Below, piece after piece: positions 20,121 through 40,345 of a stretch of DNA of 64,000 bases. Where the stretch lies: assembly GCF_056712565.1 (NCBI RefSeq), contig NZ_CM160072.1; one strand, written 5' to 3'. The translations under genes were made by a program, and so were the position numbers. The notes under the pieces are model-generated. The model saw only the letters and a program-made list of their open reading frames with translations, searched no databases and had not been told where the DNA came from. Numbering within the stretch: the first letter of the stretch is position 1; the number at the start of each line of letters is the position of its first letter.

Positions 20121-20143
20121 CTTTAAGTCACCCTTCGCGATAG

Positions 20144-21661: not shown

Positions 21662-21721
21662 CTTTAAATTCCTTACTACTCTTCATCTACCGACCGCGCC
21701 GCGTGCATCGTCATCAGATGC

Positions 21722-22507: not shown

Positions 22508-22528
22508 GATCAGTATCCTTTATTGTTA

Positions 22529-22810: not shown

Positions 22811-23094
22811 AACGACCTCAATATTTCCGATAGAAAGAAAACGTGCACAGAGGAATAGCAATCTACGGATTCACCCATGTGCATTAATTATTTAATTATC
22901 ATAATGCTAAGGTTATTCAGACAAAATGTTTTGCGCGTCAGTGGGACTATCTTGCTTTTGCATTCCCGCAATTGACAATAAAATCCACCCGAGGTTTGTA
23001 ATAAAAGATCTGCGTTTAAATTTCCTTGCAAAATAGCCCCGCTCTGAATAGCAATCATAATTACTGTTAAAACTGTCGTATTTTTGCCAATTAG

Positions 23095-24291: not shown

Positions 24292-24319
24292 GATGCCCCC
24301 TGAAATGGACTGCAAAAAA

Positions 24320-24817: not shown

Positions 24818-24844
24818 AAGTATTCCTCAGCGTACGCGCCGCTA

Positions 24845-25114
24845 TTAACCGTTAAGTTCGAGCGAGTCGACGATACCCACCACGGCAGCGTCAATCACCG
24901 AGTGATCTTTGTTGTTGCTCATACGCGCCGAACTGCCGGTGGTGATGATCACAATCTCTCCATTGCCCGCGCCGACAGTATCAACTGCCACCTGGGCATG
25001 AACAGTCGGCTGATAGTTTTCATCGAGCCGCGCCACTATCAGCAGTTTTGAGCCATTCAGCGAGGCGTGTTTGGTGGTGGAAACCAATGCGCCAGTAACT
25101 TTAGCGAGGTACAT
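24845..25114 (-). CDS. BMC-P vertex (pentamer) protein, EutN/PduN/CcmL family
   Basis: 89 aa; MYLAKVTGALVSTTKH...GSKLLIV...VAVDTVGAGNGEIV matches the EutN/CcmL fold. Confidence 0.8.
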   Translation of the reverse strand: MYLAKVTGALVSTTKHASLNGSKLLIVARLDENYQPTVHAQVAVDTVGAGNGEIVIITTGSSARMSNNKDHSVIDAAVVGIVDSLELNG

Positions 25115-25125
25115 ATTTCCTCCGG

Positions 25126-25830
25126 TTAACCATGGATAACAGTGAGATTACGCCGCTGGATTTCATCTCTGGCAGCAGGGGTAATCAGCGTGTCGCTCTC
25201 AATGCGCAGCACTGTGCCAATGGTCAGTAGGCGGATATCGCTCTGGGTGATTAAACGTTTTTTACCGGCTACTGTCAGGGTGGATTGGCTTCCTTGCACC
25301 GACTTGACATGGGCTGCACGTTTACCGAAAAGCGTAATGCCATAGCTCTCTAGGACCTGAGCGTAACCTTCCAGACAAGACAGCAGTGGCATCGGTAATT
25401 CGCTATCGACGCATTGTTGATGCAGCGTGGCGATAATCTGTTTACGGTGCTGTAACGTCTGAAATACAGTTTCACAGGCCAGATTATCGCGAATGCCCAG
25501 CGCAATTTTGCTCATGCTGTTGACAGAGAGCGCAGGCAGATAGAGCACCTCATAGTGAGGCGGCGATCTGTCAAATCCAGCACGAGAACCACGCTGAATT
25601 AGCGCATCCATGCAGACAGATTTCAGCGCCGACTGGCTGGCGCTGTGAGAAAAATTTACCCACAACTGATAACCCGCCAGCTCAAGCGCCTCAAGGCAGT
25701 TCAGCGTTTCCGGCAGCGAGGAGATATCCTCACCAGTCACCACTACGCAGACATTTTTCTGCGCGACGGATTGTGCCAACACTTCAGCGATGACCCGGTC
25801 CAGCAGTTGCGATAAGGTTTGATTGTCCAT
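25126..25830 (-). CDS. Microcompartment-associated protein of unknown function (possibly PduM-like or other accessory protein)
   Basis: ORF embedded between shell and EutJ-like genes with overlapping stop/start; no confident motif. Confidence 0.4.
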   Translation of the reverse strand: MDNQTLSQLLDRVIAEVLAQSVAQKNVCVVVTGEDISSLPETLNCLEALELAGYQLWVNFSHSASQSALKSVCMDALIQRGSRAGFDRSPPHYEVLYLPALSVNSMSKIALGIRDNLACETVFQTLQHRKQIIATLHQQCVDSELPMPLLSCLEGYAQVLESYGITLFGKRAAHVKSVQGSQSTLTVAGKKRLITQSDIRLLTIGTVLRIESDTLITPAARDEIQRRNLTVIHG

Positions 25831-25834
25831 TGAT

Positions 25835-26593
25835 TTACCCCTGGTCCGCATTCATGGCGATGCCTAATGGTGTGACCAATAGTGGCTCTGCCGAAGGAAT
25901 CACATTTTTACCGGTTTGTTTACTGAACACGTTGGCAAACTGGCTGAAGCTGCTCGCGCCACCTACCAAATAAATATTTTTTACCTGCTGGGTAGCGAAC
26001 CATCCCGACACCAAGCTGGCCATTTTCTGGGCCACCGGTAGCACCAGGGTAAAGACCTGCGCTTCCTGCCCGTTTTTTTTCATTTCTTCCGCCTCGGCAT
26101 AAGGCAAGCCCAGCGCGCCAGCGATCACCAACTTCATATGGCTTCCACCGGTGGGCTCATCGGCACTGAACGTCACTTTACCGCTTTTCAAAATGCTCAT
26201 GCCGGTGGTGCCTCCTCCGACATCCACCACCGCCCCGTTTTTAATATTCAGCGCGCTGGCAGCGGCTACCGGTTCATCTAGTACTTGGGTCACGATAAAA
26301 CCCGCCAACTCCACTACGTTGACGATCACTTTTGTGTTGCCTTCAGAGATCCCCGGTGGGACTGCGATCGCCGCGCGCTCCAGCGTGCAGCCCTGTTTCT
26401 GTTCAAGAATTTGTTTGAGACGTGCTACTACCCGGCTGGCGGTCAGGTAATCCACCACCACGCCGTCTTTCACCACATTGGAGGGATACATTACCCCTGC
26501 CACCGGCTGGTTATCTTCATCCAGCACCACGATTGCGATATTGGCGGTACCGAGATCCCCCCCACCTTCAACGCGCCGGAGTAGGGCCGACAT
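25835..26593 (-). CDS. EutJ-like actin-fold ATPase/chaperone
   Basis: GGDLGTANIAIVVLD... and VVDVGGGTTGMSI... match the phosphate-1/phosphate-2 motifs of the Hsp70/actin fold as in EutJ. Confidence 0.7.
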   Translation of the reverse strand: MSALLRRVEGGGDLGTANIAIVVLDEDNQPVAGVMYPSNVVKDGVVVDYLTASRVVARLKQILEQKQGCTLERAAIAVPPGISEGNTKVIVNVVELAGFIVTQVLDEPVAAASALNIKNGAVVDVGGGTTGMSILKSGKVTFSADEPTGGSHMKLVIAGALGLPYAEAEEMKKNGQEAQVFTLVLPVAQKMASLVSGWFATQQVKNIYLVGGASSFSQFANVFSKQTGKNVIPSAEPLLVTPLGIAMNADQG

Positions 26594-26647
26594 TCGCCGC
26601 TGTCAATCAGCGCGGCCAATTCGTGAAATCGGCAGTTTTCGGGGCTG

Positions 26648-27334
26648 TTAGCCATGGCGCGCAGCCTGTTTTATGCCGCGAACGGTATCGCCATTACGCA
26701 GACCGACGCCGTTAGCTTCTTCCATATCAATATGCAGTTCCAGCACTGCATCCGCCGTGACGCGTACCACTACATGGCTGAGCACACCACCGCGCGGACC
26801 GTTTGTTTGCACATCGATTTCCATTCCGTCATGCAGGCCGTGCAGTTCGGCTTCTTCGGGCGAGATATGGATATGGCGCCAGGCGACAATCATGCCGTTG
26901 TGTTTCACCACCCGCCCTTTCGGACCGATGATTTCAATGCCCGGCGAATCCAGCAGATCCCCCGACATGCGCACCGGAGCTTTAGTGCCCAGCGCAAAGC
27001 CGTCGGCCACAGAGATTTCCACCTGCGTGGCATTACGCAGTGGCCCTAACACGCGCACTTTGTTGAGCTCGCCTTTTGGCCCGCGCAGCGTCACCATCTC
27101 TTCGGCGGCATACTGACCGGGCTGTTTCAACGCTTTAGAACGGGTTAGCGTAGAGCCGTAGCCAAACAGAATGTCCATATCTTCACGGCACAGATGAACA
27201 TGGCGGTTGGACACGCCCACCGGAATATTCAGCGCGACAGGCGCGGCAGCAGGCGCTGCCGTTTTTTTACTGGTGGCAAGTTCCTGCAAAATTTGTTGGG
27301 TAATCCACTCGGCTTGTTGTTCGGTGTAATTCAT
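26648..27334 (-). CDS. pduL: Phosphate acyltransferase PduL (phosphotransacylase)
   Basis: Duplicated PduL/EutD-type motifs (GVSNRHVHL and AWRHIHISPEEA; GPKG/GPRGGV). Confidence 0.8.
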   Translation of the reverse strand: MNYTEQQAEWITQQILQELATSKKTAAPAAAPVALNIPVGVSNRHVHLCREDMDILFGYGSTLTRSKALKQPGQYAAEEMVTLRGPKGELNKVRVLGPLRNATQVEISVADGFALGTKAPVRMSGDLLDSPGIEIIGPKGRVVKHNGMIVAWRHIHISPEEAELHGLHDGMEIDVQTNGPRGGVLSHVVVRVTADAVLELHIDMEEANGVGLRNGDTVRGIKQAARHG

Positions 27335-27473
27335 AATGGGTACGACCTGATTATTGGGTTATCTTATGGGTAATGGGCGTCTAACGATCAGGATAGGGAG
27401 TAACGACGCCCGGTTTTTGTTTATCAGCAGGACTTTTTTGACTGCTTCACGGAGGCTGAACAAAGTTATCCAG

Positions 27474-28592
27474 CTAGCCGGTAATCAGGTCGATCAACCC
27501 TTCGACATCATGCGTCGTCACCTGCCGCGGGTTCGACGCGGTACAACCGTCGGCCAGCGTCGAATTCACCAGTGCGCTGCGCAACTCGATGATTTTTGCA
27601 CGGTCGATGCCCAGTTCGCTGAGAGTGACGGGGATGCAGAAATGGCGATTGATCTGGCGGATCTCCTGAGTCATCAGCGCGATGGCCTGCTCCGGTACCG
27701 CATGGTCAATGCCTATGATTTGCGCGCAACGGTGATAGCGATCGCGGGTTTCAGTGCTGGCCCGTTTGCTGTTGAAGTCGATGACAATCGGCAGCAGCAT
27801 GGCGTTAATTTTGCCATGAGGAATATGCAGCATCCCGCCGATGGCGTGTGCCATGCCGTGTACCAACCCCAGCCCGGCGGAGTTAAATGCCATGCCTGCC
27901 ATACAGGAGGCATTGTGCATGTGGGTGCGCGCCGCAATGTCTTTTTCGTCGTTAAACACCTGCGGCAGATAGCGCCAGGTCAACGCGATGGCTTTTTCCG
28001 CCAGCGCATCGCTAAAGTCATTTGAGCCAGTAGAGACAAAGGCTTCAATGGCATGGGTCAGCACGTCCATGCCGGTATCTACCGCGACATGACGCGGCGC
28101 GGTTAACACTAGGTTAGGATCGAGAATGGCGATTTCCGGCACCAGTTGCCCGGAGATCAACGGATATTTGCGGCCATTTTGCGGATCAGAGATGATCGCG
28201 TAGGACGTCACTTCAGAGCCGGATCCGCTGGTTGTGGGAATAGCAATGAGATCGATTTGATGATCTCCAAAATACTCTTCCAATGTGACTTTAATTCCTT
28301 TCGCAGCGTCCAGCGACGAGCCGCCGCCGAGGGCGATAATAACGTCGGGCTTAAAGGCTTTAAAACGCGCCGCGCCGGAAGTCAGAATATCAATATCTGG
28401 ATCCGGAGTAACCTCACCGAAAATGCATACCGATGCCTCAGGCATATGGCTTATTAAATAACGAGTTTTACCTGATGACATCATAAAATCATCGGTGACA
28501 ATACCGACTCGTTTATTATTAAATTGGCATAGAGAGGTTATTGCCTCTTCACCAAAATAAATTTTGGGGCACGAAAAATAATAGCGGGCCAT
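27474..28592 (-). CDS. Iron-containing alcohol dehydrogenase (PduQ/EutG-like), first gene of the operon
   Basis: Fe-ADH signatures GGGSSLDAAK and the metal-site His-rich region (HGMAHAIGGMLHIPHG). Confidence 0.85.
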   Translation of the reverse strand: MARYYFSCPKIYFGEEAITSLCQFNNKRVGIVTDDFMMSSGKTRYLISHMPEASVCIFGEVTPDPDIDILTSGAARFKAFKPDVIIALGGGSSLDAAKGIKVTLEEYFGDHQIDLIAIPTTSGSGSEVTSYAIISDPQNGRKYPLISGQLVPEIAILDPNLVLTAPRHVAVDTGMDVLTHAIEAFVSTGSNDFSDALAEKAIALTWRYLPQVFNDEKDIAARTHMHNASCMAGMAFNSAGLGLVHGMAHAIGGMLHIPHGKINAMLLPIVIDFNSKRASTETRDRYHRCAQIIGIDHAVPEQAIALMTQEIRQINRHFCIPVTLSELGIDRAKIIELRSALVNSTLADGCTASNPRQVTTHDVEGLIDLITG

Positions 28593-30607: not shown

Positions 30608-31045
30608 TTGACTGGAAAATTATGTTGCAGGAACGTGAGGGCTGAGGAACAAAGCGTATTCCGGCGCTGTCCGTCCTTGCTGTCACTGACACTGATGTCT
30701 GCTTTATTATCGCCTTTATCTCTTCAGGCAGCGGATGTCCGGCGTAGCGGAGATGAAGCATTTATCATTCAGCAGCAGCGTCAGGAAGCCCTTGAGCAAC
30801 AACTGATGCCTTCAGCCCCTGATGTTCGCCTTTCTGCACCTGGCTCTTTTGCACGTAAGATTAATTTTCCTGTTGAAACGCCCTGTTTTCAGATTAAACA
30901 GACGGAACTGGAGGGGGCTGATGCGTTACCACACTGGCTGCCTTTACAAAAAATCGCCAACGGGGCGGTCGGGCACTGTCTGGGGGCGAAAGGAATTAAT
31001 CTGCTGATGAGTACATTGCAGAACCGTCTGGTCGATCATGGTTAA
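30608..31045 (+). pseudogene. N-terminal fragment of a two-partner-secretion outer-membrane transporter (TpsB/ShlB/CdiB-like)
   Basis: Signal-peptide-like start then POTRA-region resemblance ([16 protein letters not shown]...[12 protein letters not shown]); only 145 of the expected ~550 aa. Confidence 0.4.
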
Positions 31046-31116
31046 CCCTTTCCGGTCAGCAGATAACGCGACTGACAGAATTACCCCCGGCATATAACCT
31101 GCAGCGCAGTGCGCAG

Positions 31117-31515
31117 TTGCTGCAGCAACTGATGGTACTTTTCCCCGACAATCCCCATGTTCAGGAAATGGTGGATAACTGGCAGAAGAGCGTAAGGAGT
31201 CGTGCGCTCCCGGAAGAGGCGATGACGGGCTGGAATGAAGGCATGACCCGCTTACAGCAGCTGGCTGAACGCCTGAACCGTCTGGATGAACAGCGGGGAA
31301 AATACATGACGGTCAGTGAACTGAGAACGGAGGTGTTTGGCATCATGCAGGCCTTTAACCGGCATATCCCGGCGGAAGAGCAGTTACGTCGCTATGATGA
31401 AGCCCGTAACCAGAATGGCAGTGAACAGCAGCAAAAACAGGCTGAAATGGCACTGAATCAGCTGATTAATCGTTATCAGGTGGAACACGCTGGCAAACCG
31501 GAGAGGCAGCCATGA
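31117..31515 (+). CDS. Hypothetical protein or gene fragment
   Basis: ORF only; Gln/Glu/Arg-rich. Confidence 0.2.
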   Translation: MLQQLMVLFPDNPHVQEMVDNWQKSVRSRALPEEAMTGWNEGMTRLQQLAERLNRLDEQRGKYMTVSELRTEVFGIMQAFNRHIPAEEQLRRYDEARNQNGSEQQQKQAEMALNQLINRYQVEHAGKPERQP

Positions 31516-31753
31516 TGGCTGATAAAACATGGTAATGGAAAATAAACCCAAAAGAATGCGCACACCATGGGCAATCGAAGATATTCGCTACCTTGAAACG
31601 CATTATGGCGTGAAAAAAAACGCGAAATAGCGGCATATTGCCATGGGAGGGGATATGTCTGTCAGGCTGACTTGTTTTTCTCTTAAATAGCCTTTATTTA
31701 AATTAGCCTTGGTATGAAATTAGAATCTATTAATTTTTATCAAAGGAGATTGT

Positions 31754-33190
31754 GTGACAATAGCAAGAGATTCTGTTAGTGGTGAAATTGTTCATGGTCA
31801 TGATCTTCGGGAAATGGATGATCTTTATATACGAACAACCACTTTTGAATGCCCGTATGACAAATGTAGGATACCCGCTACTCCATGTAGCTTCAAAGAA
31901 ATAAATTTAAATCAATCATACTTTCGATATAAAGAGACTCATAGGCCGGGATGTAATATTCATGATCCTAAGAGTAAAAATAAGTGTAACTCAAAGAATA
32001 ATAAAAAGCATAATTCACCACCGGCATTAGCTATATCTCTTCTGAAACTTGATGTGTCTGAAAGAAATTACGACTCTTCTGGCAGAAGAATTATCAAACA
32101 GACGCGAAATGATGAAAAAGATTTGGGAGGTAAAGTACACCCTGTGTCATCTTCAAGCATCAAACCGGTAGTAGACTACTACATTAATGGAGATAATCTC
32201 TATGAACCATTATCAATTCCCCCTTATGGAGTTAGAACTTATAAAGATACTTTTCAACTAATCATCTATAAAGAAGGAATTAGATATAATAAGCCAGCAA
32301 TTTATTTTGGTAAAATTCAATCTAATATACGGCTGGAGATAAATTCGAATAGATATTACCTTACTTTTTTAGCCAGAAAGAAAGGTACCAAACAAGCATA
32401 TAAACTTGAAATTGATGCTTCAGAATGGGATGAAAGTAAAAAGAGTTTTTTCTGTAGTGAGTATGAAAAACAAAGAGCAGAAGCAAATAAGTATTATAAT
32501 GGACTAAAAGACAAGCGCAAAGCAACCAAATATCTTAATATTTTCTTTTTTGGTTTTCCTGATGAGTGCGATAGTTTTTTATTTAAGACTAGTTGTTTTA
32601 AATTGATTTATATCGTTTTCTTAGATGATTTTGATGTGACTTATAATGACAAAAACTACAGCATAGAAAAAGAACAGCTAATTAGAGATGAAATTAACAA
32701 AGAACATTTGACAGATCATCAAAATAGAATAAACCTTGCTGAGGTTGCTGAGGTTGCTGAGGTTGCTGAGGTTGCTGAGGTTGCTGAGGTTGCTGAGGTT
32801 GCTGAGGTTGCTGAGGTTGCTGAGGTTGCTGAGGTTGCTGAGGTTGCTGAGGTTGCTGAGGTTGCTGAGGTTGCTGAGGTTGCTGAGGTTGCTGAGGTTG
32901 CTGAGGTTGCTGAGGTTGCTGAGGTTGCTGAGGTTGCTGAGGTTGCTGAGGTTGCTGAGGTTGCTGAGGTTGCTGAGGTTGCTGAGGTTGCTGAGGTTGC
33001 TGAGGTTGCTGAGGTTGCTGAGGTTGCTGAGGTTGCTGAGGTTGCTGAGGTTGCTGAGGTTGCTGAGGTTGCTGAGGTTGCTGAGGTTGCTGAGGTTGCT
33101 GATTTTGACAAGAGCGAATTTAACCCTTCGGATTCTGATAGGAAAATATGGACTGGGATAAGAAAGCTTATTTCATTCTTTAAAAAATAG
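31754..33190 (+). CDS. Hypothetical AT-rich protein with a Cys/His-containing N-terminal region and a C-terminal (Ala-Glu-Val)x40 tract
   Basis: GTG start preceded by AAAGGAGA; 478 aa ORF; the in-frame 9-bp repeat encodes AEV 40 times. Confidence 0.6.
   Translation: MTIARDSVSGEIVHGHDLREMDDLYIRTTTFECPYDKCRIPATPCSFKEINLNQSYFRYKETHRPGCNIHDPKSKNKCNSKNNKKHNSPPALAISLLKLDVSERNYDSSGRRIIKQTRNDEKDLGGKVHPVSSSSIKPVVDYYINGDNLYEPLSIPPYGVRTYKDTFQLIIYKEGIRYNKPAIYFGKIQSNIRLEINSNRYYLTFLARKKGTKQAYKLEIDASEWDESKKSFFCSEYEKQRAEANKYYNGLKDKRKATKYLNIFFFGFPDECDSFLFKTSCFKLIYIVFLDDFDVTYNDKNYSIEKEQLIRDEINKEHLTDHQNRINLAEVAEVAEVAEVAEVAEVAEVAEVAEVAEVAEVAEVAEVAEVAEVAEVAEVAEVAEVAEVAEVAEVAEVAEVAEVAEVAEVAEVAEVAEVAEVAEVAEVAEVAEVAEVAEVAEVAEVAEVADFDKSEFNPSDSDRKIWTGIRKLISFFKK
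32738..33097 (+). repeat. Perfect tandem repeat, 40 copies of GCTGAGGTT (360 bp)
   Basis: Read directly: unit starts at 32738 and repeats without a single mismatch to 33097, then a partial GCT. Confidence 0.95.
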
Positions 33191-33221
33191 ATCTATAGCA
33201 GTCATCATATTGGATTATTGG

Positions 33222-33257
33222 TGAAGTGGTACACTGAATTTGCCCACCTGAACAGAG
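33222..33257 (+). mobile_element. Solo IS911/IS3-family terminal inverted repeat (IS scar)
   Basis: TGAAGTGGTACACTGAATTTGCCCACCTGAACAGAG differs at only ~2 positions from the terminal repeat of the intact IS911 at 41881..41914. Confidence 0.5.
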
Positions 33258-33321
33258 TTGGTTTTATCAAACTTGTAGTTTACTCAATGACGTAAAAATT
33301 GGTGATGTAAAGGATATAAAA

Positions 33322-35106
33322 ATGTGGTCAGACAAAGAGTCATCAGAAGACTACCTAAATTTTGGTGAAGTATCTCAGTTAGCCGTGGATGTACTTACCA
33401 CGAAAGATATGTTACCAGTATCTATCGGAATTTTTGGAAACTGGGGGGCAGGTAAATCCTCTCTGTTAAAACTGATAGAGCAAAAACTTGAGCAAGACGA
33501 CAAAGATTGGATTGTTATCAATTTTGACTCTTGGCTCTATCAGGGGTACGACGACACCCGTGCCGCACTTCTTGAAGTCATCGCTACAGAATTGACAAAA
33601 GCTGCTGAAGGTAATTCAGCCCTTATATCAAAAACTAAGAGACTCCTTAGTCGAGTTGATGGTTTTAGAGCTATGGGATTACTAGCTGAGGGTACAGCTT
33701 TAATGGCAGGATTACCTACTGGCGGTTTGCTTTCTAGGGGGATTGGTGCATTAAGAAATATCACCGATGGCATCCAGAGCCAGGAAGAGTATGAGGCTTT
33801 AGGCAATATAGCTAAAGAAGGTAAAGAAACTGCTTGTGGTTTGATTAAACCACAAACAAAAAAAAGCCCCCCTCAGCAGATTGATGCCTTTCGTAAGGAA
33901 TATGGGGAAATTCTAGAAGAACTTGGAAAGCCACTCATTGTGGTAATAGATAACCTAGACCGCTGTCTCCCTGCCAATGCTATCCATACACTTGAAGCTA
34001 TCAGGCTATTCCTTTTCTTGACTAATACAGCCTTTATTATTGCAGCAGATGAGGACATGATTCGCTCTTCTGTGGCTGATTACTTCAAAGGGGCATCACA
34101 GCGCCATCAAATAGATTATCTGGATAAGCTAATCCAGGTTCCTATTCGGGTGCCTAAGGCTGGGGTCCGTGAGATCCGTTCGTATCTGTTCATGCTTTAT
34201 GCCATTGAACATGGCTTAGAAGGCGAAAAAATAACTATGCTCCGTGAGGGCTTAGAGAAGGCGTTACAGCAATCCTGGAAAGATGAACCAATCTCACGTC
34301 AGGAGGCCTTAAAAATGACTGGTGAAGCGGATGATAGCAACCTCGCGCTGGCGTTTGCGCGTGCTGACCGTATTGCTCCCATTTTAGCCAACTCTCCAAT
34401 TATTCATGGTAATCCCAGGATCGTTAAACGCTTGTTGAATGTTGTGAAAATGCGATCTCAAATTGCGAAGCGACGAGCAATGCCTTTGGATGAAGCAATT
34501 ATTACTAAGCTAGTAATTTTTGAACGCTGTGTTGGAGTGGATGGCACCGCTGATTTATATCATCTCGTGGATATTGAACAAGGTGTTCCCCAGATACTTA
34601 AACAGCTTGACGATAATGGCGGTCAAATACCTACTGATGCACCAAAGACATGGACTGATAGTCCAACGACTAAATCTTTCATCAGTCAATGGGCCCAACT
34701 TGAACCTCGTCTTGGTGGGATTGACTTAAGGGCCGCCATATATCTGTCCCGAGAAACTATGCCAATAGGTGCATATGTGGTTGGTTTATCGCCATCTGGA
34801 CGGGAAGTACTAAATGCACTAATTGAATTGAAAAACACTAGTTCTCCTACAGCAGAAAACCTTTTGAAAGCACTTCCTCGTGAGGAGCAAATACCTGTAA
34901 TGGAAGGTTTAATTAACCAGTTACGGCAGGTATCAGATTGGGATCGTAAGCCCAGAGGCTTTTCCGGTGCATGTCTGTTGGCCCGCTACTCAACAGATGC
35001 AGCCAGCATATTAATTCGTTATCTACAGGAATTACAGTTGGGGATGAAACGACCAGCGTGGATGACTGCAGCATTAAAAGATGAACAATGGAATAAGGAC
35101 GCTTAA
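33322..35106 (+). CDS. qatA: KAP-family P-loop NTPase (QatA-like)
   Basis: Walker A GNWGAGKSS followed by the KAP-characteristic INFDSWLY block; 594 aa. Confidence 0.8.
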   Translation: MWSDKESSEDYLNFGEVSQLAVDVLTTKDMLPVSIGIFGNWGAGKSSLLKLIEQKLEQDDKDWIVINFDSWLYQGYDDTRAALLEVIATELTKAAEGNSALISKTKRLLSRVDGFRAMGLLAEGTALMAGLPTGGLLSRGIGALRNITDGIQSQEEYEALGNIAKEGKETACGLIKPQTKKSPPQQIDAFRKEYGEILEELGKPLIVVIDNLDRCLPANAIHTLEAIRLFLFLTNTAFIIAADEDMIRSSVADYFKGASQRHQIDYLDKLIQVPIRVPKAGVREIRSYLFMLYAIEHGLEGEKITMLREGLEKALQQSWKDEPISRQEALKMTGEADDSNLALAFARADRIAPILANSPIIHGNPRIVKRLLNVVKMRSQIAKRRAMPLDEAIITKLVIFERCVGVDGTADLYHLVDIEQGVPQILKQLDDNGGQIPTDAPKTWTDSPTTKSFISQWAQLEPRLGGIDLRAAIYLSRETMPIGAYVVGLSPSGREVLNALIELKNTSSPTAENLLKALPREEQIPVMEGLINQLRQVSDWDRKPRGFSGACLLARYSTDAASILIRYLQELQLGMKRPAWMTAALKDEQWNKDA

Positions 35107-35858
35107 TGGGAACATCACAATCAAGTAAAGGTCCAGGAGGTGGCTCTCCGCTGGTTCCACCATGGGCTGATGATCAGCCACAGCAACCGTTACCCTCGCC
35201 GCAAGAAAGGAGGTTTGCGCCATTTCGAGAATCGTTGGGAAATGCGGTATCAAATGGAAATCGAGCAGATTTCAGAAAAGCCATAGGGCACTACGCGCGA
35301 AAAGCCTCCGGAGGGAGCAGTAACGCTGCTCGGCGATTAGGGAGTGTCACGCAAGCTGGGGCCGAATTATTTGGGGCTTTAGTGGGAATGCCTTCGGCTC
35401 CCGGAGAACCAAGCATCGATTTGGGCAGTTTGGCAGGCCTTCCATGCGAAATAGCAATATCAACTATTGCTCAAGCTTTAACATCACAGGATGGTGACTC
35501 AGAAAAGATCTGTGCGGCCATGAACCATGCTTTAGTGGAGGCTCTTGATGGCGTAGAAATTTTCGATCCTCAAAAAATAACTGATGGTGTGATTGTTGAC
35601 ACAATGATTGGTTATCTAGCGGAAAGTATTTTCCTTCAGATGGTAATGGATTCTAATAGGGCATGGAACAAAGCAGATACACCTTCAAAGGCAATTCATG
35701 CAGAAATTGAACTCCGGGAATTGATTAAAGTTGTTGTTGATAAACATATGGCACCAAAACTTGCCGGTAACATAAGATCGTTCACACGAAACCAAATGGT
35801 AAAAATTGAACGTCAGGCCATTATTGAGGCCTGGCAAGAATGGGAGGCATACCAGTGA
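35106..35858 (+). CDS. qatB: Protein of unknown function (QatB-like position), Gly/Pro-rich N-terminus
   Basis: Start overlaps the qatA stop (TAATG); no motif recognised; call rests on operon position. Confidence 0.55.
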   Translation: MGTSQSSKGPGGGSPLVPPWADDQPQQPLPSPQERRFAPFRESLGNAVSNGNRADFRKAIGHYARKASGGSSNAARRLGSVTQAGAELFGALVGMPSAPGEPSIDLGSLAGLPCEIAISTIAQALTSQDGDSEKICAAMNHALVEALDGVEIFDPQKITDGVIVDTMIGYLAESIFLQMVMDSNRAWNKADTPSKAIHAEIELRELIKVVVDKHMAPKLAGNIRSFTRNQMVKIERQAIIEAWQEWEAYQ

Positions 35859-37159
35859 CACAATTAGTTTTCCATCATAAACATCACCATTTGCCGCCAG
35901 CAAGTGAGAAAGTGTTACCTGTTCAGCTATATGGATTAAGTGGTCAGAGGCGCGGAGATATATCTGTTATCGGGAATCCTGCGATTGATCGGATCAGACG
36001 TTTGGGAGTACAGCTTCCAGCTAAGGTCATGGATTTTCTGAGTGTTGCATTAGCAGTAACTGCAGCAGATACTTTCGTTCAGCGTGAAAGTTCCGAGGAT
36101 GGTTGGACCCGCCAATTGTCGTTACGACTCCCCCTTCATGAACCATCCAGATGGATTAGTCTAAAGAAAGAACTTGAGAGTGCTTTGCATTTTCTTAGTG
36201 GAGACATCTGGGATTTCGAATTTTGTGACGATGGTTATGCACCGCCAGAGCCTTATAGCCAGCATTCAAGGCATCGTCTGATTAAGCTAAAAGGGCTTGA
36301 CTGTGTCAGCTTATTTTCAGGAGGTCTGGATTCAGCTATTGGTGCAATAGATCTTCTGGCTGCAGGGCGCGCTCCACTTTTGGTTAGTCATGCTTATAAG
36401 GGGGACAAGTCTCGTCAAGATCAGATCGCTGAAAAATTAAGTGGCCAATTTTCGCGCTTTGAGATTAATGCTGACCCACACATTTATCAAGGCGTGACTG
36501 ATATTACGATGCGAACTCGTAGCCTCAATTTTCTTGCCTTTGCGGCCGTAGGTGCTTGTGCCGTACAAGAGATATCTCAACAAGAAAAGATTGATTTGTT
36601 CGTACCTGAAAATGGATTTATCTCATTAAATGCACCACTTACTCCACGGCGGATAGGTTCGCTGAGCACACGAACAACACATCCACATTTTATTACGAGC
36701 ATACAAAAGATCTTTGATGCGCTCGGTATTTCTTGTCAAATAATCAATCCATATCAGTTTAAGACAAAAGGAAAAATGATCTCCGAATGTTCAAATAAGC
36801 AGCTCTTATCTAAAATTGTGGAAAGTACAGTATCCTGCAGTCATTGGAAACGAATGGGGCAGCAATGTGGGGTATGTATACCGTGTATCATTCGACGAGC
36901 ATCACTTCATGCAGGGGGAATTAGTAGAGATGTTGAATATATTTTCCAGTCCTTAGCTAAAGTAATGAATGAAATAGATCGCAGGGACGACCTGATCGCC
37001 CTTAGGATTGCGATCACGCAGAAATCGACTTTGAAAATAGGTACATGGATTGCCAAAAGTGGCCCTTTGCCTACGGCAGAATTTGATAATTTCAAGCAAG
37101 TATTTAAGGATGGCCTAGATGAGGTTGAAAGCTATTTACTGAGTGAGAACATAGTATGA
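35840..37159 (+). CDS. qatC: QueC-like PP-loop ATPase (QatC-like)
   Basis: PP-loop SGGLDS (LFSGGLDSAIGAIDLL) in a 439 aa protein larger than housekeeping QueC; overlaps both neighbours. Confidence 0.8.
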   Translation: MGGIPVTQLVFHHKHHHLPPASEKVLPVQLYGLSGQRRGDISVIGNPAIDRIRRLGVQLPAKVMDFLSVALAVTAADTFVQRESSEDGWTRQLSLRLPLHEPSRWISLKKELESALHFLSGDIWDFEFCDDGYAPPEPYSQHSRHRLIKLKGLDCVSLFSGGLDSAIGAIDLLAAGRAPLLVSHAYKGDKSRQDQIAEKLSGQFSRFEINADPHIYQGVTDITMRTRSLNFLAFAAVGACAVQEISQQEKIDLFVPENGFISLNAPLTPRRIGSLSTRTTHPHFITSIQKIFDALGISCQIINPYQFKTKGKMISECSNKQLLSKIVESTVSCSHWKRMGQQCGVCIPCIIRRASLHAGGISRDVEYIFQSLAKVMNEIDRRDDLIALRIAITQKSTLKIGTWIAKSGPLPTAEFDNFKQVFKDGLDEVESYLLSENIV

Positions 37160-37881
37160 GCATCGATATGCACTGTCATCTAGACTTATATCCTCGGCCA
37201 GACCTCGTGGCTGAAGAAAGTAAGCGTCGAGGGACTTATATTCTGTCGGTGACAACAACACCTAAAGCATGGCATGGTACTTCTTTATTGGCTAAAGAAA
37301 GTCAACGAATCCGAACTGCTCTTGGGCTACATCCTCAAATCGCGCATCAAAGATCGCATGAGTTAGACCTGTTTGATTCATTGCTTTCGGAAACTAAGTA
37401 TGTAGGGGAAATAGGGCTTGATGGTGGACAGGGATTTAAAGAACATTGGGATATTCAATTGAAAGTGTTCCGACACATTCTCAACAGTGTAAATCGGGCT
37501 GGTGGCAAGATTATGACTATCCATAGTCGGGGAAGTGCATCAGCGGTGCTTGATGAGATTGAAAATATCGATGGGGTGGCAATATTGCATTGGTTCACTG
37601 GAACACCTAAGCAGCTTGAAAGGGCAATTGATTTAGGATGCTGGTTCTCAGTGGGGCCTGCTATGCTCGATACAATAAAGGGTAAGGCCTTAGTTTTGAA
37701 AATACCCAAATCACGCATTCTTACAGAAACAGATGGGCCATTTGCTAAGTTTCGTAATGACCCACTAATGCCATGGGATAGTGGGATTGCAGAGAAACAG
37801 TTAGCCGCATTATGGGGGATTAGTCAGATGGAGGTTAATGCTCAGCTAGTTGATAATTTTAAGGTATTATGTACATCATAA
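37156..37881 (+). CDS. qatD: TatD-family metal-dependent nuclease (QatD-like)
   Basis: N-terminal HCHLD motif and downstream His/Asp/Glu pattern of the TatD TIM-barrel hydrolase; ATGA overlap with qatC. Confidence 0.85.
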   Translation: MSIDMHCHLDLYPRPDLVAEESKRRGTYILSVTTTPKAWHGTSLLAKESQRIRTALGLHPQIAHQRSHELDLFDSLLSETKYVGEIGLDGGQGFKEHWDIQLKVFRHILNSVNRAGGKIMTIHSRGSASAVLDEIENIDGVAILHWFTGTPKQLERAIDLGCWFSVGPAMLDTIKGKALVLKIPKSRILTETDGPFAKFRNDPLMPWDSGIAEKQLAALWGISQMEVNAQLVDNFKVLCTS

Positions 37882-38433: not shown

Positions 38434-39009
38434 TCAGGGCGTTTTCCAGATGACAGCTATAGTAAAAATGATCGCCAGACTGGCGAGAAAGCAGAGCGAA
38501 AGCGGGATTTTGTCCTTCAGTGTCAGGTTCAGCTCTTCTTCAACCCATGCTTTTTCAAATTCACAGTAAAATTTATAATGTGCGTACCAGTTACTTCCGA
38601 AGATCTGTTTGCTGATGACCGTGCCGTAAAACCGGGACATGATAGCGTCGATGGATTGTTGTGTACGCTGATAGTCAAAGTTTGCATCGCTTTTTACGTT
38701 GCGGTAGATGACTTCAAGTTCATTAAAAATTTTGGTCTGCTCAATCCCCGCACTTTCATAACTCTGCTTTTCCGAGTCATAAAACTGAATGTACATTGTA
38801 GCAACACCAAATATAATTAATATCGCGGAAATGACGTTTGTGGCCAGCTCAGGAATAAAAAGGGCGAACACACCGACAGCAAGAGAAATAAAGCTAATCC
38901 AACCGGATGCCTTACAAATCAGATCATAGGTGGCAAAGTTTTTCTTAGCGCCAAATCCAACGTTATAACCATGTCGGGCGATTAATTTCAGCATCTCTGA
39001 TTGCGTCAT
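38434..39009 (-). CDS. SLATT-like two-transmembrane effector protein
   Basis: 191 aa with two central hydrophobic helices (WISFISLAVGVFALFIPELATNVISAILIIFGVATMYI) and a C-terminal hydrophobic segment; 8 nt downstream of the SMODS gene. Confidence 0.6.
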   Translation of the reverse strand: MTQSEMLKLIARHGYNVGFGAKKNFATYDLICKASGWISFISLAVGVFALFIPELATNVISAILIIFGVATMYIQFYDSEKQSYESAGIEQTKIFNELEVIYRNVKSDANFDYQRTQQSIDAIMSRFYGTVISKQIFGSNWYAHYKFYCEFEKAWVEEELNLTLKDKIPLSLCFLASLAIIFTIAVIWKTP

Positions 39010-39016
39010 AAAAACC

Positions 39017-40345
39017 TCAGCTTATGGGAACTTCAATCTGGGCCCGGGCAACCACAACCTCATTTTTTATCACATAGCATTCTACCATGTGATCTCCGCG
39101 GAAGTCGGTAGTTTCTTTCTTCGTACAGTAGCCGCCGTCCGAAACGATTTGTCCCCGGATCATATTTCTTCTGCGTGCTTCGTCACCCACGTTCAGTACC
39201 TTCCACATAACGGTGTAGGGTTCCTCTGCCTCCATTTCTGTCAAGTCTGCCCGGAAAAGGAGAGATTTTCGAGCGGAGAGGCGGAATCTTCTGATAAGCA
39301 TCTCCCTCAGGCTTCTGGGAGGGAAACCATCCTGGGTTACGGTACAGTCAAGGTTGAGTGAGTACCTGATATCCACCGGATATTTATCCTCTATAAACTC
39401 TTCGGTATCGGTCCAGGGAACAGCATCTGCCGCATGCGATTCCAGACCAAGACGGGCTTCCATAATACCCACTTTACGTCTGGGGAAGGCTCGTCCGAAC
39501 ACTTTGCGCCAGCGGTCATTTTCACTGGCAGCCCCCTCAGCGTCTAAGGCATCACAACATAATTCATACGCGTGTTTCGCTGCCCGGCCAAACCAGGGAG
39601 ATTTAACACGTACATGCTGATTACTGCCTAACGCGAGATACCTTTCCTTTCTCTCCTCATTTGACAGATATTCAAAAAAGTCTCTGGCGAGGGCTCCCAG
39701 GCTGCCATTTCCGGTATTGTCATAATCTGATGTTGATGAAAGAAAGCGATACGCTAGTGTGTCTATCAGTAAGCCACCCATATTGACGCCATGCAGGTTC
39801 TTCCAGGCTCTGATCATTTTACACAGCTTGCGCAGATTATTGGATTTATCTCGCGAAAATGCGGTCATGGCCGCCTTTTCGTGAAGAGGTTTTGTAATGC
39901 GCCATGCTCCTCCATTATAGCTTTCAGGGAATTTAAAGCTGTCATCATCCTGTCTGAATACAGGTTGAACCTCGACATAAAAGTTTTTAAAGATGATCTG
40001 AACAACCAGTCTGTCCTTTTTCACAGTCTGGTCAGGATATTCTTCCGCCAGAATGTTTCTGACATCTGTAAGCAATGCAGACTGACCATTATCCTTACGG
40101 TTATAATATTCATACTGATTGGGGGGCATAATATAAAGCATATCCAGATCGGATATGCCTTTTATTGCGGTATGTCTGCCTACTGACCCCACTTTCAAGC
40201 GGTTTGCTACCCGGGAACTCGTTCCTCTGAACGCAAGATTTAATGACTTGGTTATTTTTCGATAGTGATAGCTGATCTTTTTTGCCTGTTTGAGGTCAAG
40301 ATTCAAATTTTCAAGAAATTCGCTGAACAATTCCCTGTGGCTCAT
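39017..40345 (-). CDS. SMODS-type (cGAS/DncV-like superfamily) nucleotidyltransferase with C-terminal sensor-like domain
   Basis: Pol-beta NTase motif GS-x10-DLD (GSVGRHTAIKGISDLDMLYI) in a 442 aa protein. Confidence 0.75.
   Translation of the reverse strand: MSHRELFSEFLENLNLDLKQAKKISYHYRKITKSLNLAFRGTSSRVANRLKVGSVGRHTAIKGISDLDMLYIMPPNQYEYYNRKDNGQSALLTDVRNILAEEYPDQTVKKDRLVVQIIFKNFYVEVQPVFRQDDDSFKFPESYNGGAWRITKPLHEKAAMTAFSRDKSNNLRKLCKMIRAWKNLHGVNMGGLLIDTLAYRFLSSTSDYDNTGNGSLGALARDFFEYLSNEERKERYLALGSNQHVRVKSPWFGRAAKHAYELCCDALDAEGAASENDRWRKVFGRAFPRRKVGIMEARLGLESHAADAVPWTDTEEFIEDKYPVDIRYSLNLDCTVTQDGFPPRSLREMLIRRFRLSARKSLLFRADLTEMEAEEPYTVMWKVLNVGDEARRRNMIRGQIVSDGGYCTKKETTDFRGDHMVECYVIKNEVVVARAQIEVPIS

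What the first reader, a model, noticed from the sequence alone, without database searches (positions are those of the whole stretch)
31754..33190. Orphan protein with a mismatch-free 40-copy 9-bp in-frame repeat, directly upstream of the Qat operon
GCTGAGGTT is repeated 40 times without a single substitution (32738..33097), giving an (Ala-Glu-Val)40 tract near the C-terminus of a 478 aa AT-rich protein whose N-terminal region has several Cys/His pairs (CPYDKC...C...H...C). Such purity implies very recent expansion or ongoing slipped-strand length variation; because the unit is 9 bp the frame is preserved, so copy number would tune protein length rather than switch it off. Its position (good RBS, same strand, 130 bp upstream of the KAP NTPase, separated only by an IS scar) raises the question of whether it is an accessory or sensor component of the defence islet.
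Basis: seen in the sequence. Interest (0 to 1): 0.65.

Follow-up and report, generated by a model that had tools for sequence, protein, structure and literature searches.

The report
Hypervariable repeat linker in Avs8B-like protein
The perfect 40-copy 9-bp repeat is real and varies from 1 to 59 copies among E. coli genomes, but it sits in the spacer of a mobile-island protein of the little-understood PD-lambda-4B/Avs8B family (sister of the gene holding the classic O157 typing repeat O157-10), not in a dedicated part of the neighbouring Qat phage-defence system.

Summary
Confirmed: GCTGAGGTT x40, no mismatch, at 32738-33097, in frame in a 478-aa ORF (31754-33190). It lies 131 bp upstream of qatA, past a ~40-bp IS3-family end remnant.

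The locus is a true VNTR. In 75 complete E. coli genomes, copy number runs from 1 to 59 (39 alleles). 71 of 75 length differences are exact multiples of 9, and every array I read is pure.

The protein is not an orphan. Residues 1-~292 are a divergent member of the PD-lambda-4 B / Avs8B family (hhalign probability 100%, E 9e-40). This domain has a conserved C-C-H-C motif and a weakly OB-like beta domain, and is under purifying selection (dN/dS ~0.18).

After the repeat comes a cationic amphipathic C-terminal helix. 49 of 132 relatives show the same layout: domain, low-complexity linker, basic tail.

A 57%-identical paralog in O157:H7 carries (PE)n at the same position. That array is the MLVA locus TR2 = Vhec1 = O157-10, the most mutable O157 VNTR.

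The gene occurs without Qat in E. coli O166:H15, Citrobacter, Klebsiella, Xenorhabdus, Enterobacter, Erwinia and O157. Homology between lineages ends just after its stop codon, and published work shows QatBC alone defends.

Best reading: a probably membrane-tethered island protein whose spacer was taken over by a slippage-prone minisatellite. Ongoing length variation is supported; recent expansion and a Qat accessory role are not. Its function remains unknown.

The parts
31697..31726 (+). Candidate sigma-70 promoter (TTTAAA-18-TAGAAT). It is weak and not above chance.
   Evidence: 9 of 12 matches. Six sites were found in the region against 5.9 expected, so this is only a lead.
31743..31748 (+). 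Shine-Dalgarno sequence AAGGAG, 5 nt before the GTG start.
   Evidence: Read directly from the sequence.
31754..33190 (+). Complete ORF of 478 aa: Avs8B-like domain, (AEV)40 linker and basic amphipathic tail.
   Evidence: dN/dS is 0.17-0.19 against the E. albertii, Citrobacter and Klebsiella alleles. RefSeq annotates it as a hypothetical protein.
31754..32629 (+). N-terminal domain (aa 1-~292), homologous to PD-lambda-4 B / Avs8B.
   Evidence: hhalign of A1 vs A3: probability 100%, E 9e-40, query 1-290 against template 1-296. A3 members match PADLOC PDLC03992 over 1-303/303 at E 1e-57 to 1e-60. The protein's own hit is E 2e-6 over aa 209-288. AF2 model pLDDT 87, pTM 0.82.
31850..31954 (+). Conserved Cys/His cluster (C33, C38, C45, H63, C67), a putative zinc ribbon.
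   Evidence: C33 and C67 are invariant and C38 and H63 at least 90% conserved in 133 relatives. Short beta hairpins are modelled here. Metal binding is inferred, not shown.
32216..32665 (+). Beta-rich core (aa ~155-304) with one long helix (aa 227-250). The fold is OB-like.
32666..32737 (+). Helical lead-in (aa 305-328) between the domain and the repeat.
   Evidence: AF2 helix 305-327 at lower confidence, pLDDT 59-79.
32738..33097 (+). VNTR: GCTGAGGTT x40, encoding (Ala-Glu-Val)40 with net charge -40.
   Evidence: Copy number is 1-59 across E. coli genomes. Arrays are pure in every locus read.
33098..33187 (+). C-terminal 30 aa. The last ~16 residues (33140-33187, RKIWTGIRKLISFFKK) form a cationic amphipathic helix, a putative membrane-targeting sequence.
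   Evidence: Hydrophobic moment 0.77 over 14 residues, against 0.62 for the E. coli FtsA membrane-targeting sequence; charge +5; 2% of shuffles reach the observed value. The tail is conserved in Citrobacter, O157, Xenorhabdus and Enterobacter homologues. Analogous tails occur in 47 of 49 extended relatives.
33219..33260 (.). Remnant of an IS3-family terminal inverted repeat. It marks the junction between the gene's module and the Qat cargo.
   Evidence: positions 35-76 of the query match about 700 E. coli records at about 90%, several under IS3-family transposase annotations. Lineage homology ends before it.
33322..37881 (+). Neighbour, not part of the feature: qatA (33322-35106), qatB (35106-35858), qatC (35840-37159), qatD (37156-37881).
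   Evidence: PADLOC: QatA E=0, QatB 9e-131, QatC 2e-140, QatD 6e-97.

Best explanation
The ORF encodes a horizontally mobile island protein with three parts.

1. An N-terminal domain of about 290 aa from the PD-lambda-4 B / Avs8B family. It has a C-C-H-C putative zinc ribbon and an OB-like beta domain, so it probably binds nucleic acid.
2. An acidic spacer.
3. A short cationic amphipathic C-terminal helix, which most likely parks the protein on the cytoplasmic face of the inner membrane.

In this lineage the spacer has been taken over by a 9-bp minisatellite. Replication slippage or unequal sister exchange adds and removes whole units at high frequency. The array stays perfectly homogeneous (concerted evolution), and the tether changes by 3 residues per step without breaking the frame.

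The length changes are best read as tolerated variation in a weakly constrained linker, not as an on/off switch.

The gene was placed next to qatABCD by island and IS rearrangement. It is not a dedicated Qat component.

Shown here: the repeat, its polymorphism and purity, family membership, purifying selection, the modular contexts, and conservation of the tail. Inferred: zinc binding, nucleic-acid binding, membrane tethering, and the neutrality of length. The cellular role is not known.
For: Polymorphism and purity:
- 246 complete genomes carry the locus, and lengths differ by multiples of 9 (71 of 75). Copy number is 1-59.
- Direct counts give 1, 19, 23, 40, 43, 44 and 59 pure units with intact ORFs.
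- The same unit is present in E. albertii and Citrobacter despite dS of 0.12 and 0.61 in the flanking domain.

Family membership:
- A profile of close homologues retrieves 252 representatives, and 126 of 133 of those tested hit PADLOC PD-Lambda-4_B.
- hhalign gives probability 100% over residues 1-290.

Architecture:
- 49 of 132 relatives have a low-complexity extension of at least 60 aa. 47 of these have a cationic tail and 40 have a hydrophobic moment of at least 0.45.
- One relative (P0113) has a TM-like segment instead of the tail.

Paralog:
- The O157:H7 gene (57% identity) has (PE)21 at the homologous position.
- The published TR2 primers match exactly on either side of that array.
- TR2 = Vhec1 = O157-10 (PMC3768571). 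Its measured mutation rate is 1.3-4.8e-4 per generation, and it accounted for 72% of all VNTR mutations in that study (PMC3777172).

Independence from Qat (contexts without Qat):
- E. coli O166:H15: BRO-N protein, helicase, methyltransferase.
- Citrobacter and Klebsiella: OLD nuclease upstream and, in Citrobacter, an integrase downstream (the Klebsiella contigs end inside the gene).
- O157, Enterobacter and Erwinia: recombinase block upstream, relaxase downstream.
- A relative at the end of a P2-like prophage.
- Xenorhabdus: no defence gene alongside. Providencia: downstream of a type I restriction-modification system, with the contig ending in the gene.
- Lineage homology ends about 8 nt after the stop codon, and an IS remnant lies in the spacer.
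- QatBC alone is sufficient for defence (PMC13279940).

Real gene: dN/dS is 0.10-0.22.
Against: - Nothing here shows expression, zinc or DNA binding, or membrane association.
- No intrinsic terminator separates the gene from qatA, so co-transcription is possible.
- In E. coli the gene and this Qat allele are almost perfectly co-inherited.
- (AEV)n is not an obviously disordered sequence. Its conformation (helix or extended) is unknown.
- Different repeats, (PE)n, (AEV)n and probably (QP)n, arose independently at the same site. That could mean variability itself is selected, which would contradict the 'tolerated, neutral' part of this reading.
- Avs8B itself has no known function. It was dispensable for lambda defence (bioRxiv 10.1101/2025.07.02.662641).
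Confidence: 0.6

Rival explanations
1. Adaptive contingency locus. Slippage-driven change in linker length is itself selected. It would generate subpopulations whose membrane-tethered N-domain reaches different distances or has different accessibility, for example to intercept incoming phage or plasmid DNA, or to escape a phage-encoded inhibitor.
For: - Different tandem repeats arose at the same linker position in separate lineages: (PE)n from CCAGAG or CCTGAG, (AEV)n from GCTGAGGTT, and (QP)n at contig ends.
- (PE)n is encoded by two different DNA units, which points to a constraint at the peptide level.
- Both E. coli paralogs are hypervariable.
- The gene sits in defence and mobile islands, where diversifying selection is common.
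Against: - No phenotype is linked to length.
- A 1-unit allele keeps an intact ORF, which suggests length is not critical.
- Distant relatives have non-repetitive linkers of 60-200 aa with no conserved length.
- High mutability is expected from array length alone; in PMC3777172 longer alleles mutate faster.
Confidence: 0.2
2. One reading: the protein is an accessory or sensor subunit of the adjacent QatABCD system, co-transcribed with qatA.
For: - Same strand, a 131-bp gap and no terminator-like site.
- 238 E. coli genomes share the exact gene-qatA junction.
- The family's namesake (Avs8B) also sits beside a P-loop NTPase, the STAND protein Avs8A, and QatA is a KAP P-loop NTPase.
Against: - A solo IS3-family end lies between the two genes.
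- Homology with the O166:H15 and Citrobacter alleles ends about 8 nt after the stop codon, and their downstream genes are unrelated to Qat.
- No relative examined in other genera is adjacent to Qat.
- The protein hits no Qat model in PADLOC.
- P. aeruginosa qatABCD works on its own in E. coli, and E. coli QatBC alone protects against lambda-vir (PMC13279940).
- In MINF_1A an IS5 removed qatA and qatB while this gene stayed intact.
- The E. coli co-occurrence reflects a single island.
Confidence: 0.07
3. The ORF is a decaying, unexpressed remnant, and the repeat is selfish or neutral DNA with no protein-level meaning.
For: - It is very AT-rich (31.7% GC) and is surrounded by pseudogene fragments (POTRA, VasL, a SANT/Myb stump) and IS debris.
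- Occasional out-of-frame alleles exist. MS 110-3 has a 5-bp partial unit inside the array and is annotated as split; EC200461 differs by a non-multiple of 9.
- Avs8B has no demonstrated function.
Against: - dN/dS is 0.10-0.22 across E. coli, E. albertii, Citrobacter, Klebsiella, O157, Erwinia and Xenorhabdus.
- The start, the Cys/His motif and the C-terminal tail are conserved across genera.
- 71 of 75 alleles stay in frame.
Confidence: 0.06
4. The perfect array is an assembly artefact.
For: - Short-read assemblies break in it. Many database homologues are 'partial' and end at the repeat, and the Citrobacter scaffold has an N-gap inside the array.
Against: - 246 complete, mostly long-read, genomes span it, with lengths differing by whole units.
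- Two independent CFT073 assemblies both give 24 units.
Confidence: 0.01

Closest known systems
E. coli O157:H7 VNTR locus O157-10 (= TR2 = Vhec1), used in MLVA typing
   Same: - It lies in a paralogous gene: 57% identity in the N-domain, the same C-terminal tail (KVWGRLKKIITFFKK), and the same position between domain and tail.
- It is an in-frame, pure, hypervariable array, with about 7-50 units in O157 genomes.
- It changes by whole units.
   Different: - The unit is 6 bp (CCAGAG, Pro-Glu), not 9 bp (GCTGAGGTT, Ala-Glu-Val).
- It sits in a different island, after a two-recombinase block and before a BamE-like lipoprotein gene, in O157 and O55 lineages.
- The TR2 primers are absent from this window.
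- The 9-bp ExPEC locus is not one of the GECM-10 loci: none has a 9-bp unit, and the seven of the 20 GECM-10 primers I searched for, including both CVN016 and both CVN017 primers, are absent from the window.
PD-lambda-4 B / Avs8B, the second gene of the Avs8 (PD-lambda-4) anti-phage operon
   Same: - Homologous over the whole ~300-aa protein (hhalign probability 100%), with the shared Cys/His motif.
- Function unknown in both.
   Different: - Canonical Avs8B is about 300 aa with no linker or tail, and lies downstream of the STAND NTPase Avs8A.
- Here there is no Avs8A, and the protein carries an acidic repeat linker plus an amphipathic tail.
- Sequence similarity to the PADLOC model is marginal for this protein alone (E 2e-6, 80 residues).
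C-terminal membrane-targeting amphipathic helices of MinD and FtsA
   Same: A short C-terminal cationic amphipathic helix follows a flexible linker. Its hydrophobic moment is as high as that of the FtsA sequence.
   Different: There is no sequence homology, membrane binding is untested, and the linker here is a long acidic repeat.
TonB-type (Glu-Pro)n/(Lys-Pro)n spacers and other repeat linkers that set reach
   Same: The (PE)n linkers of the paralogs resemble the TonB EP repeat (from my own knowledge). In both cases a spacer lies between a membrane anchor and a functional domain.
   Different: The TonB spacer is periplasmic, is not hypervariable, and its anchor is an N-terminal TM helix. This is an analogy only.
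QatABCD anti-phage system
   Same: Physical neighbour on the same strand in a defence islet (Qat followed by type I CBASS).
   Different: - The protein matches no Qat protein model.
- There is no cross-lineage association with Qat.
- Qat functions without it.

Membership tests
PD-lambda-4 B / Avs8B protein family | Sequence homology to the family profile over the whole ~300-aa domain | tested here: met
   hhalign of A1 vs A3: probability 100%, E 9e-40, 280 columns, query 1-290. A3 members match PDLC03992 over 1-303/303 at E ~1e-57 to 1e-60. 126 of 133 relatives hit the model. The protein's own hit is only partial (E 2e-6, aa 209-288).
PD-lambda-4 B / Avs8B protein family | Conserved N-terminal Cys/His cluster (C..C...H...C) | tested here: met
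   C33 and C67 are invariant, and C38 and H63 at least 90% conserved, in 133 sequences. The same columns are invariant in the canonical subset A3.
PD-lambda-4 / Avs8 two-gene system | Operon partner Avs8A (Mrr nuclease + STAND NTPase) immediately upstream | tested here: not met
   The RefSeq annotation of the colinear 41.7-kb region shows no STAND or Mrr gene. The adjacent NTPase is QatA (KAP) and does not match PD-Lambda-4_A.
PD-lambda-4 / Avs8 two-gene system | Contribution to phage defence | not testable with these tools
   The literature reports that Avs8B is dispensable for lambda defence and inactive alone (10.1101/2025.07.02.662641).
QatABCD system (as a fifth component) | Matches a Qat protein model | tested here: not met
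   PADLOC gives only PD-Lambda-4_B for this protein. QatA-D models match the four downstream genes.
QatABCD system (as a fifth component) | Conserved adjacency to Qat across independent lineages | tested here: not met
   No Qat lies next to relatives in O166:H15, Citrobacter, Klebsiella, Xenorhabdus, Providencia, Enterobacter, Erwinia or O157. The E. coli co-occurrence reflects one island.
QatABCD system (as a fifth component) | Required for Qat defence | not tested
   Not tested here. In published work, QatBC from E. coli and qatABCD from P. aeruginosa defend without it (PMC13279940).
Bacterial in-frame VNTR (minisatellite) locus | Head-to-tail identical units, copy-number polymorphism between isolates, and changes by whole units | tested here: met
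   40 perfect units. Copy number 1-59 with 39 alleles in 75 genomes, and 71 of 75 differences are multiples of 9. Arrays are pure in 7 loci.
Bacterial in-frame VNTR (minisatellite) locus | Measured high mutation rate per generation | not testable with these tools
   The rate was measured only for the paralogous O157-10 array: 1.3-4.8e-4 per generation (PMC3777172). Here it is inferred from 18 alleles among 21 genomes with identical flanks.
Phase-variable (on/off) contingency gene | Unit length not divisible by 3, or a repeat in the promoter, so that slippage switches expression | tested here: not met
   The unit is 9 bp and lies inside the ORF, and ORFs with 1-59 units are intact. Rare out-of-frame alleles come from partial-unit indels.
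O157-10 / TR2 / Vhec1 MLVA locus | Flanked by the published TR2 primers; 6-bp unit TGGCTC | tested here: not met
   The primers match exactly in O157 Sakai (L023 12817 and 13367) but not in the window. The unit here is 9 bp. The window locus is a paralog, not the same locus.
Amphipathic-helix membrane-targeting sequence (MinD/FtsA type) | C-terminal, cationic helix with a high hydrophobic moment | tested here: met
   Hydrophobic moment 0.77 over RKIWTGIRKLISFF, charge +5, against 0.62 for FtsA. The tail is conserved across genera, and 47 of 49 extended relatives have an analogous one.
Amphipathic-helix membrane-targeting sequence (MinD/FtsA type) | Binds membrane in vivo or in vitro | not testable with these tools
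   Needs localisation or liposome assays.
OB-fold nucleic-acid-binding proteins | Five-stranded beta-barrel with OB topology and significant structural similarity | tested here: inconclusive

The most novel reading that the evidence does not exclude
The Avs8B-like family includes a widespread class of proteins tethered to the membrane through the C-terminal end, probably binding nucleic acid. In several enterobacterial lineages their tether has evolved into a hypermutable in-frame minisatellite. Slippage would then act as a built-in generator of tether-length diversity (3 to about 180 residues). That diversity would tune how far from the membrane the sensor domain operates, under diversifying selection from phages or rival mobile elements. 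On this reading, the long-used typing loci O157-10 and this ExPEC 9-bp VNTR would be read-outs of an immune or exclusion arms race.
Probability: 0.12. Interest if true: 0.75.

Novelty: new member of a known kind. Interest (0 to 1): 0.42.

Why it matters
1. It gives a protein context to O157-10/TR2/Vhec1, the most unstable VNTR of E. coli O157:H7. It also reveals a sister VNTR in ExPEC lineages (CFT073, ST95-like APEC/UPEC strains, the ATCC 11775 type strain). With 1-59 alleles, this locus could serve as a high-resolution typing marker, and it is a known breakpoint for short-read assemblies.

2. It shows that the uncharacterised PD-lambda-4B/Avs8B family is not tied to Avs8A. About a third of its members have a 'domain - disordered linker - amphipathic tail' layout, which suggests a concrete and testable hypothesis of membrane tethering and nucleic-acid binding.

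3. It warns against reading gene adjacency in defence islands as functional linkage. Here an IS-mediated junction created the apparent operon with Qat.

Tried and rejected
- Pfam, NCBIfam and PHROGs gave nothing for the protein or 133 relatives. The PDB sequence search gave only a chance hit.
- The first AF2 run, with 15 sequences, was poor (pLDDT 59). It was replaced by a run with a 133-sequence alignment (pLDDT 87).
- The afdb50 fold library was unavailable.
- A literature search for the unit GCTGAGGTT returned only unrelated primer matches.
- I considered that this might be a GECM-10 locus (CVN016 or CVN017). I rejected this because those units are 6 bp and the seven GECM-10 primers I searched for, including both for CVN016 and CVN017, are absent from the window and all loci.
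- I first guessed that TR2 equals O157-37. The literature says TR2 = Vhec1 = O157-10.
- I considered that hits H87-H97, split into two 'places', were very long arrays or Qat-less loci. The one I opened (FDAARGOS_1302) has 44 units with Qat present, so the split is a BLAST artefact.
- I considered a secreted or surface repeat protein. I rejected this because there is no signal peptide or N-terminal hydrophobic segment, and the N-terminus is a conserved cytosolic-type domain.
- The long alternative-frame ORFs across the array (SAT... on the minus strand, LRL... in the +2 frame) are by-products of the repeat.
- The genome-contig scan gave only 6 loci, so the context census is small.
Full report
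**1. Observation**

The repeat is exactly as described. There are 40 uninterrupted GCTGAGGTT units at 32738-33097, the only such run in the window. TRF reports period 9, 100% matches and score 734.

The array is in frame in the ORF 31754-33190 (478 aa). The start is GTG, preceded by AAGGAG. Outside the repeat the gene is 31.7% GC, against 47.8% for the window.

The four genes downstream are QatA, QatB, QatC and QatD by PADLOC. The spacer to qatA is 131 bp. Window 33219-33260 matches ends of IS3-family elements in hundreds of E. coli records, so the 'IS scar' is real.

The window is 99.995% colinear with an annotated E. coli chromosome over 41.7 kb. From left to right that region carries:
- the grp propanediol operon;
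- T6SS pseudogene debris (POTRA and VasL fragments);
- this gene;
- qatABCD;
- a type I CBASS on the opposite strand;
- IS elements.

**2. It is a genuine, highly polymorphic VNTR**

Megablast of the locus finds it in 254 of 5426 complete E. coli genomes, and 246 of them span it fully.

In the 75 rows I could read, 71 match lengths differ from the query by exact multiples of 9. This gives copy numbers from 1 to 59, with 39 distinct alleles and a median of 32.

Among the 21 genomes whose ~1.3 kb of flanks are 100.0% identical to the window, there are 18 different copy numbers. The array therefore changes far faster than point substitutions accumulate.

Direct counts gave these results:

| Locus | Units |
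|---|---|
| Window | 40 |
| L001 | 43 |
| FDAARGOS_1302 | 44 |
| MINF_1A | 19 |
| O166:H15 | 23 |
| ETEC1701 | 59 |
| AVS0465 | 1 |

Every array is pure and every ORF is intact.

One genome (MS 110-3) has a 5-bp partial unit inside the array that breaks the frame. This is either rare inactivation or a sequencing error.

Two independent CFT073 assemblies both have 24 units. The array is not an assembly artefact.

**3. Purity does not mean recent origin**

The same 9-bp unit forms arrays in an E. coli O166:H15 allele (flanks 96.6% identical), in E. albertii and in Citrobacter portucalensis. In the Citrobacter scaffold the array is interrupted by an N-gap.

Synonymous divergence of the adjacent domain is 0.10-0.12 for O166:H15 and E. 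albertii, and 0.61 for Citrobacter. An array that old would carry many substitutions unless it were continually homogenised. Turnover by slippage or unequal exchange explains the purity.

**4. The protein is not an orphan**

A word-indexed search with residues 1-328 found homologues at 53-98% identity in Klebsiella aerogenes, Citrobacter, Serratia, Xenorhabdus, Providencia, Pectobacterium, Yersinia, Enterobacter and Salmonella. A second E. coli cluster is 57% identical, and Vibrio homologues are about 31% identical.

Many of these entries are 'partial' because contigs break at the repeat.

Complete homologues share one architecture:
- a conserved domain of about 300 aa;
- an acidic low-complexity stretch containing a tandem repeat;
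- a conserved basic tail (K.W.G.(K/R)K(I/L)I(S/T)FFKK).

In Enterobacter, Pantoea, Xenorhabdus and O157 the repeat is (PE)n encoded by CCAGAG. In Erwinia it is (PE)n encoded by CCTGAG. Two DNA units encode the same dipeptide, which argues that the peptide character of the linker is what matters.

The arrays sit at the homologous position. Compare '...(PE)n-P-IRSS...' in O157 with '...(AEV)n-A-IKSS...' in Citrobacter.

dN/dS of the N-domain is 0.10-0.22 in every comparison. This is a functional protein-coding gene.

**5. Family**

An exhaustive profile search found 252 cluster representatives, most of them about 300 aa long. Of 133 aligned relatives, 126 match PADLOC model PD-Lambda-4_B, with a best E-value of 5e-189. 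None matches any Pfam family.

The window protein alone hits that model only weakly (E 2e-6, aa 209-288). Profile-profile comparison of the close subfamily with 40 canonical members is much stronger: probability 100%, E 9e-40, covering residues 1-290. Those canonical members match the PADLOC model end to end.

C33 and C67 are invariant, and C38 and H63 nearly so.

PD-lambda-4 is now called Avs8:
- Avs8A is a STAND NTPase with an Mrr nuclease domain that senses major capsid proteins.
- Avs8B has no recognised homology.
- Avs8B is dispensable for lambda defence and gives no defence alone (10.1101/2025.07.02.662641; 10.64898/2026.01.04.697583).

There is no Avs8A in this window.

**6. Structure**

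With the 133-sequence alignment, AF2 gives a confident model (pLDDT 87, pTM 0.82). It shows:
- small beta hairpins around the Cys/His cluster;
- a poorly ordered segment at residues 70-135;
- a beta-rich core at residues 150-304 with one long helix;
- a helix leading into the repeat.

A nucleic-acid-binding OB-like fold is a reasonable inference, not a demonstration.

**7. The linker-plus-tail is an old theme in the family**

Among 132 relatives, 49 extend at least 60 residues beyond the domain. These extensions are low-complexity (64-88% disorder-promoting residues), and 32 of the 49 have net negative charge.

The extensions end in a short basic segment. 47 of 49 tails have positive net charge, and 40 of 49 have a hydrophobic moment of at least 0.45. 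One relative (P0113) has a TM-like hydrophobic stretch instead.

The window tail, RKIWTGIRKLISFF, has a moment of 0.77. By the same calculation, the E. coli FtsA membrane-targeting helix scores 0.62.

I therefore read the C-terminus as a membrane-targeting amphipathic helix, and the repeat as the tether between it and the N-domain. This is inference. If it is right, copy number sets the tether length (3 residues per unit, 3-177 residues observed).

The existence of a 1-unit allele and the unconstrained linker lengths in distant relatives argue that length is weakly constrained. Recurrent invention of repeats at this site keeps an adaptive reading alive.

**8. Link to a classic typing locus**

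The 57%-identical paralog is present in 314 of 5426 E. coli genomes, mostly O157:H7 and O55:H7. Its length is hypervariable in steps of 6 bp, corresponding to about 7-50 units.

In Sakai the gene (415 aa) contains CCAGAG x21. The published TR2 primers match exactly on either side of the array.

TR2 = Vhec1 = O157-10 (PMC3768571). This is the most mutable O157 VNTR. It mutated at 1.3-4.8e-4 per generation in passage experiments and accounted for 72% of all events observed. Changes were by whole units, and longer alleles mutated faster (PMC3777172).

By analogy, a 40-unit, 360-bp array here should be comparably unstable.

The 9-bp locus is not one of the GECM-10 loci: none has a 9-bp unit, and the seven of the 20 GECM-10 primers I searched for, including both CVN016 and both CVN017 primers, are absent from the window. 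I found no paper describing it.

**9. Relation to Qat**

Within E. coli, the gene (254 genomes) and this Qat allele (258 genomes) are almost always together. But they share one island in related lineages, so this is not independent evidence.

Independent lineages place the gene beside different partners:

| Lineage | Context |
|---|---|
| E. coli O166:H15 | Same left flank (VasL fragment, intact SANT/Myb gene); downstream a small ORF, BRO-N protein, DEAD helicase and methyltransferase |
| Citrobacter, K. aerogenes | T6SS TssA, then OLD-family nuclease, a 235-aa ORF and the gene; in Citrobacter an integrase follows (the K. aerogenes contigs end inside the gene) |
| O157, Enterobacter, Erwinia | Two tyrosine recombinases and two further ORFs upstream; a BamE-like lipoprotein or small ORFs and then a relaxase downstream; beyond that variable cargo (Thoeris, patatin, SMC-like, Hxs, KAP) |
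| Distant relative P0029 | End of a P2-like prophage |
| Xenorhabdus | No defence gene alongside |
| Providencia | Downstream of a type I restriction-modification system; the contig ends in the gene |

Alignment of the 3' ends shows that homology between the B2, O166:H15 and Citrobacter lineages stops about 8 nt after the stop codon. The IS3-family remnant follows in the B2 lineage. In strain MINF_1A an IS5 has replaced qatA and qatB while this gene stays intact.

Published experiments show that P. aeruginosa qatABCD, and E. coli QatBC alone, confer defence (PMC13279940).

No terminator was detected in the spacer, so read-through transcription cannot be excluded. Even so, a dedicated accessory or sensor role is unlikely.

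**10. Verdict**

The interpretation needs three corrections:
- the array is old and homogenised, not newly expanded;
- the protein is not an orphan;
- the protein is not a Qat component.

It is a new member of a known kind: a sister of the O157-10 VNTR gene within the uncharacterised Avs8B-like family. The useful new hypothesis is a membrane-tethered domain on a variable-length spacer. Its cellular function remains unknown.

Noticed in passing
window 38434-40345 (- strand): A type I CBASS sits directly after qatD. It has a CD-NTase (39017-40345, PADLOC Cyclase E 2e-177) and a 2TM/SLATT effector (38434-39009, E 3e-82). The islet therefore holds at least two defence systems.
   Followed up: partly
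window ~30695-31631: Type VI secretion debris lies upstream of the gene: POTRA and VasL/TssA fragments. There is also a ~95-nt stump (31536-31631) of a SANT/Myb-like gene that is intact (633 bp) in E. coli O166:H15 (L011 5233-5865). In Citrobacter and Klebsiella the intact T6SS cluster ends at the same place, followed by an OLD-family nuclease. This suggests an insertion hotspot at the end of a T6SS locus.
   Followed up: partly
window 33219-33260: A solo ~40-bp IS3-family terminal repeat (TGAAGTGGTACACTGAATTTGCCCACC...) lies between the gene and qatA. In strain MINF_1A an ISKpn26 (IS5-like) inserted right after it and removed qatA and qatB (L012).
   Followed up: yes
L023 (O157:H7 Sakai) 6648-13817; L013-L019: The O157, Enterobacter and Erwinia paralog follows a conserved block of two tyrosine recombinases, a ~540-610-aa protein and a ~135-aa protein. 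From memory this resembles ginABCD of GInt islands. In O157 and Enterobacter it precedes a BamE-like lipoprotein gene. A relaxase follows in the Enterobacter and Erwinia loci, then variable defence cargo (Thoeris, patatin, SMC-like, Hxs radical-SAM, KAP NTPase).
   Followed up: partly
proteins P0035, P0031, P0009: Other family members end at contig breaks in (QP)n or (PE)n runs. Tandem repeats have apparently arisen several times in this linker, and they routinely break short-read assemblies.
   Followed up: no
protein P0113: One distant relative carries a hydrophobic TM-like segment (LLAILLVLFIAGLAINGVI) near its C-terminus instead of the amphipathic basic tail. This is consistent with a membrane-anchoring role for this end of the protein.
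   Followed up: no
L028 (E. coli MS 110-3) 1605-3181; NZ_CP142956.1 (EC200461): Rare alleles are out of frame. MS 110-3 has 13 units, a 5-bp partial unit and then 42 units, and is annotated as two pseudogene pieces. Whether this is real inactivation or a long-read indel error is open.
   Followed up: partly
window ~11650-28592: The grp glycyl-radical propanediol microcompartment operon lies here. Group II intron reverse-transcriptase and maturase pieces sit between grpP and grpO (~12992-14080). Coordinates were mapped from the colinear RefSeq record.
   Followed up: no
L022 (relative P0041) and L021 (relative P0029): Canonical-length Avs8B-like genes are not always next to Avs8A. One lies beside an 1831-aa SecA_DEAD/helicase protein and a NERD fragment. 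Another lies between an HNH_2 protein and a DUF7830/DUF6035 protein at a P2-like prophage end. The family may be an independent island gene rather than an obligate Avs8 subunit.
   Followed up: partly
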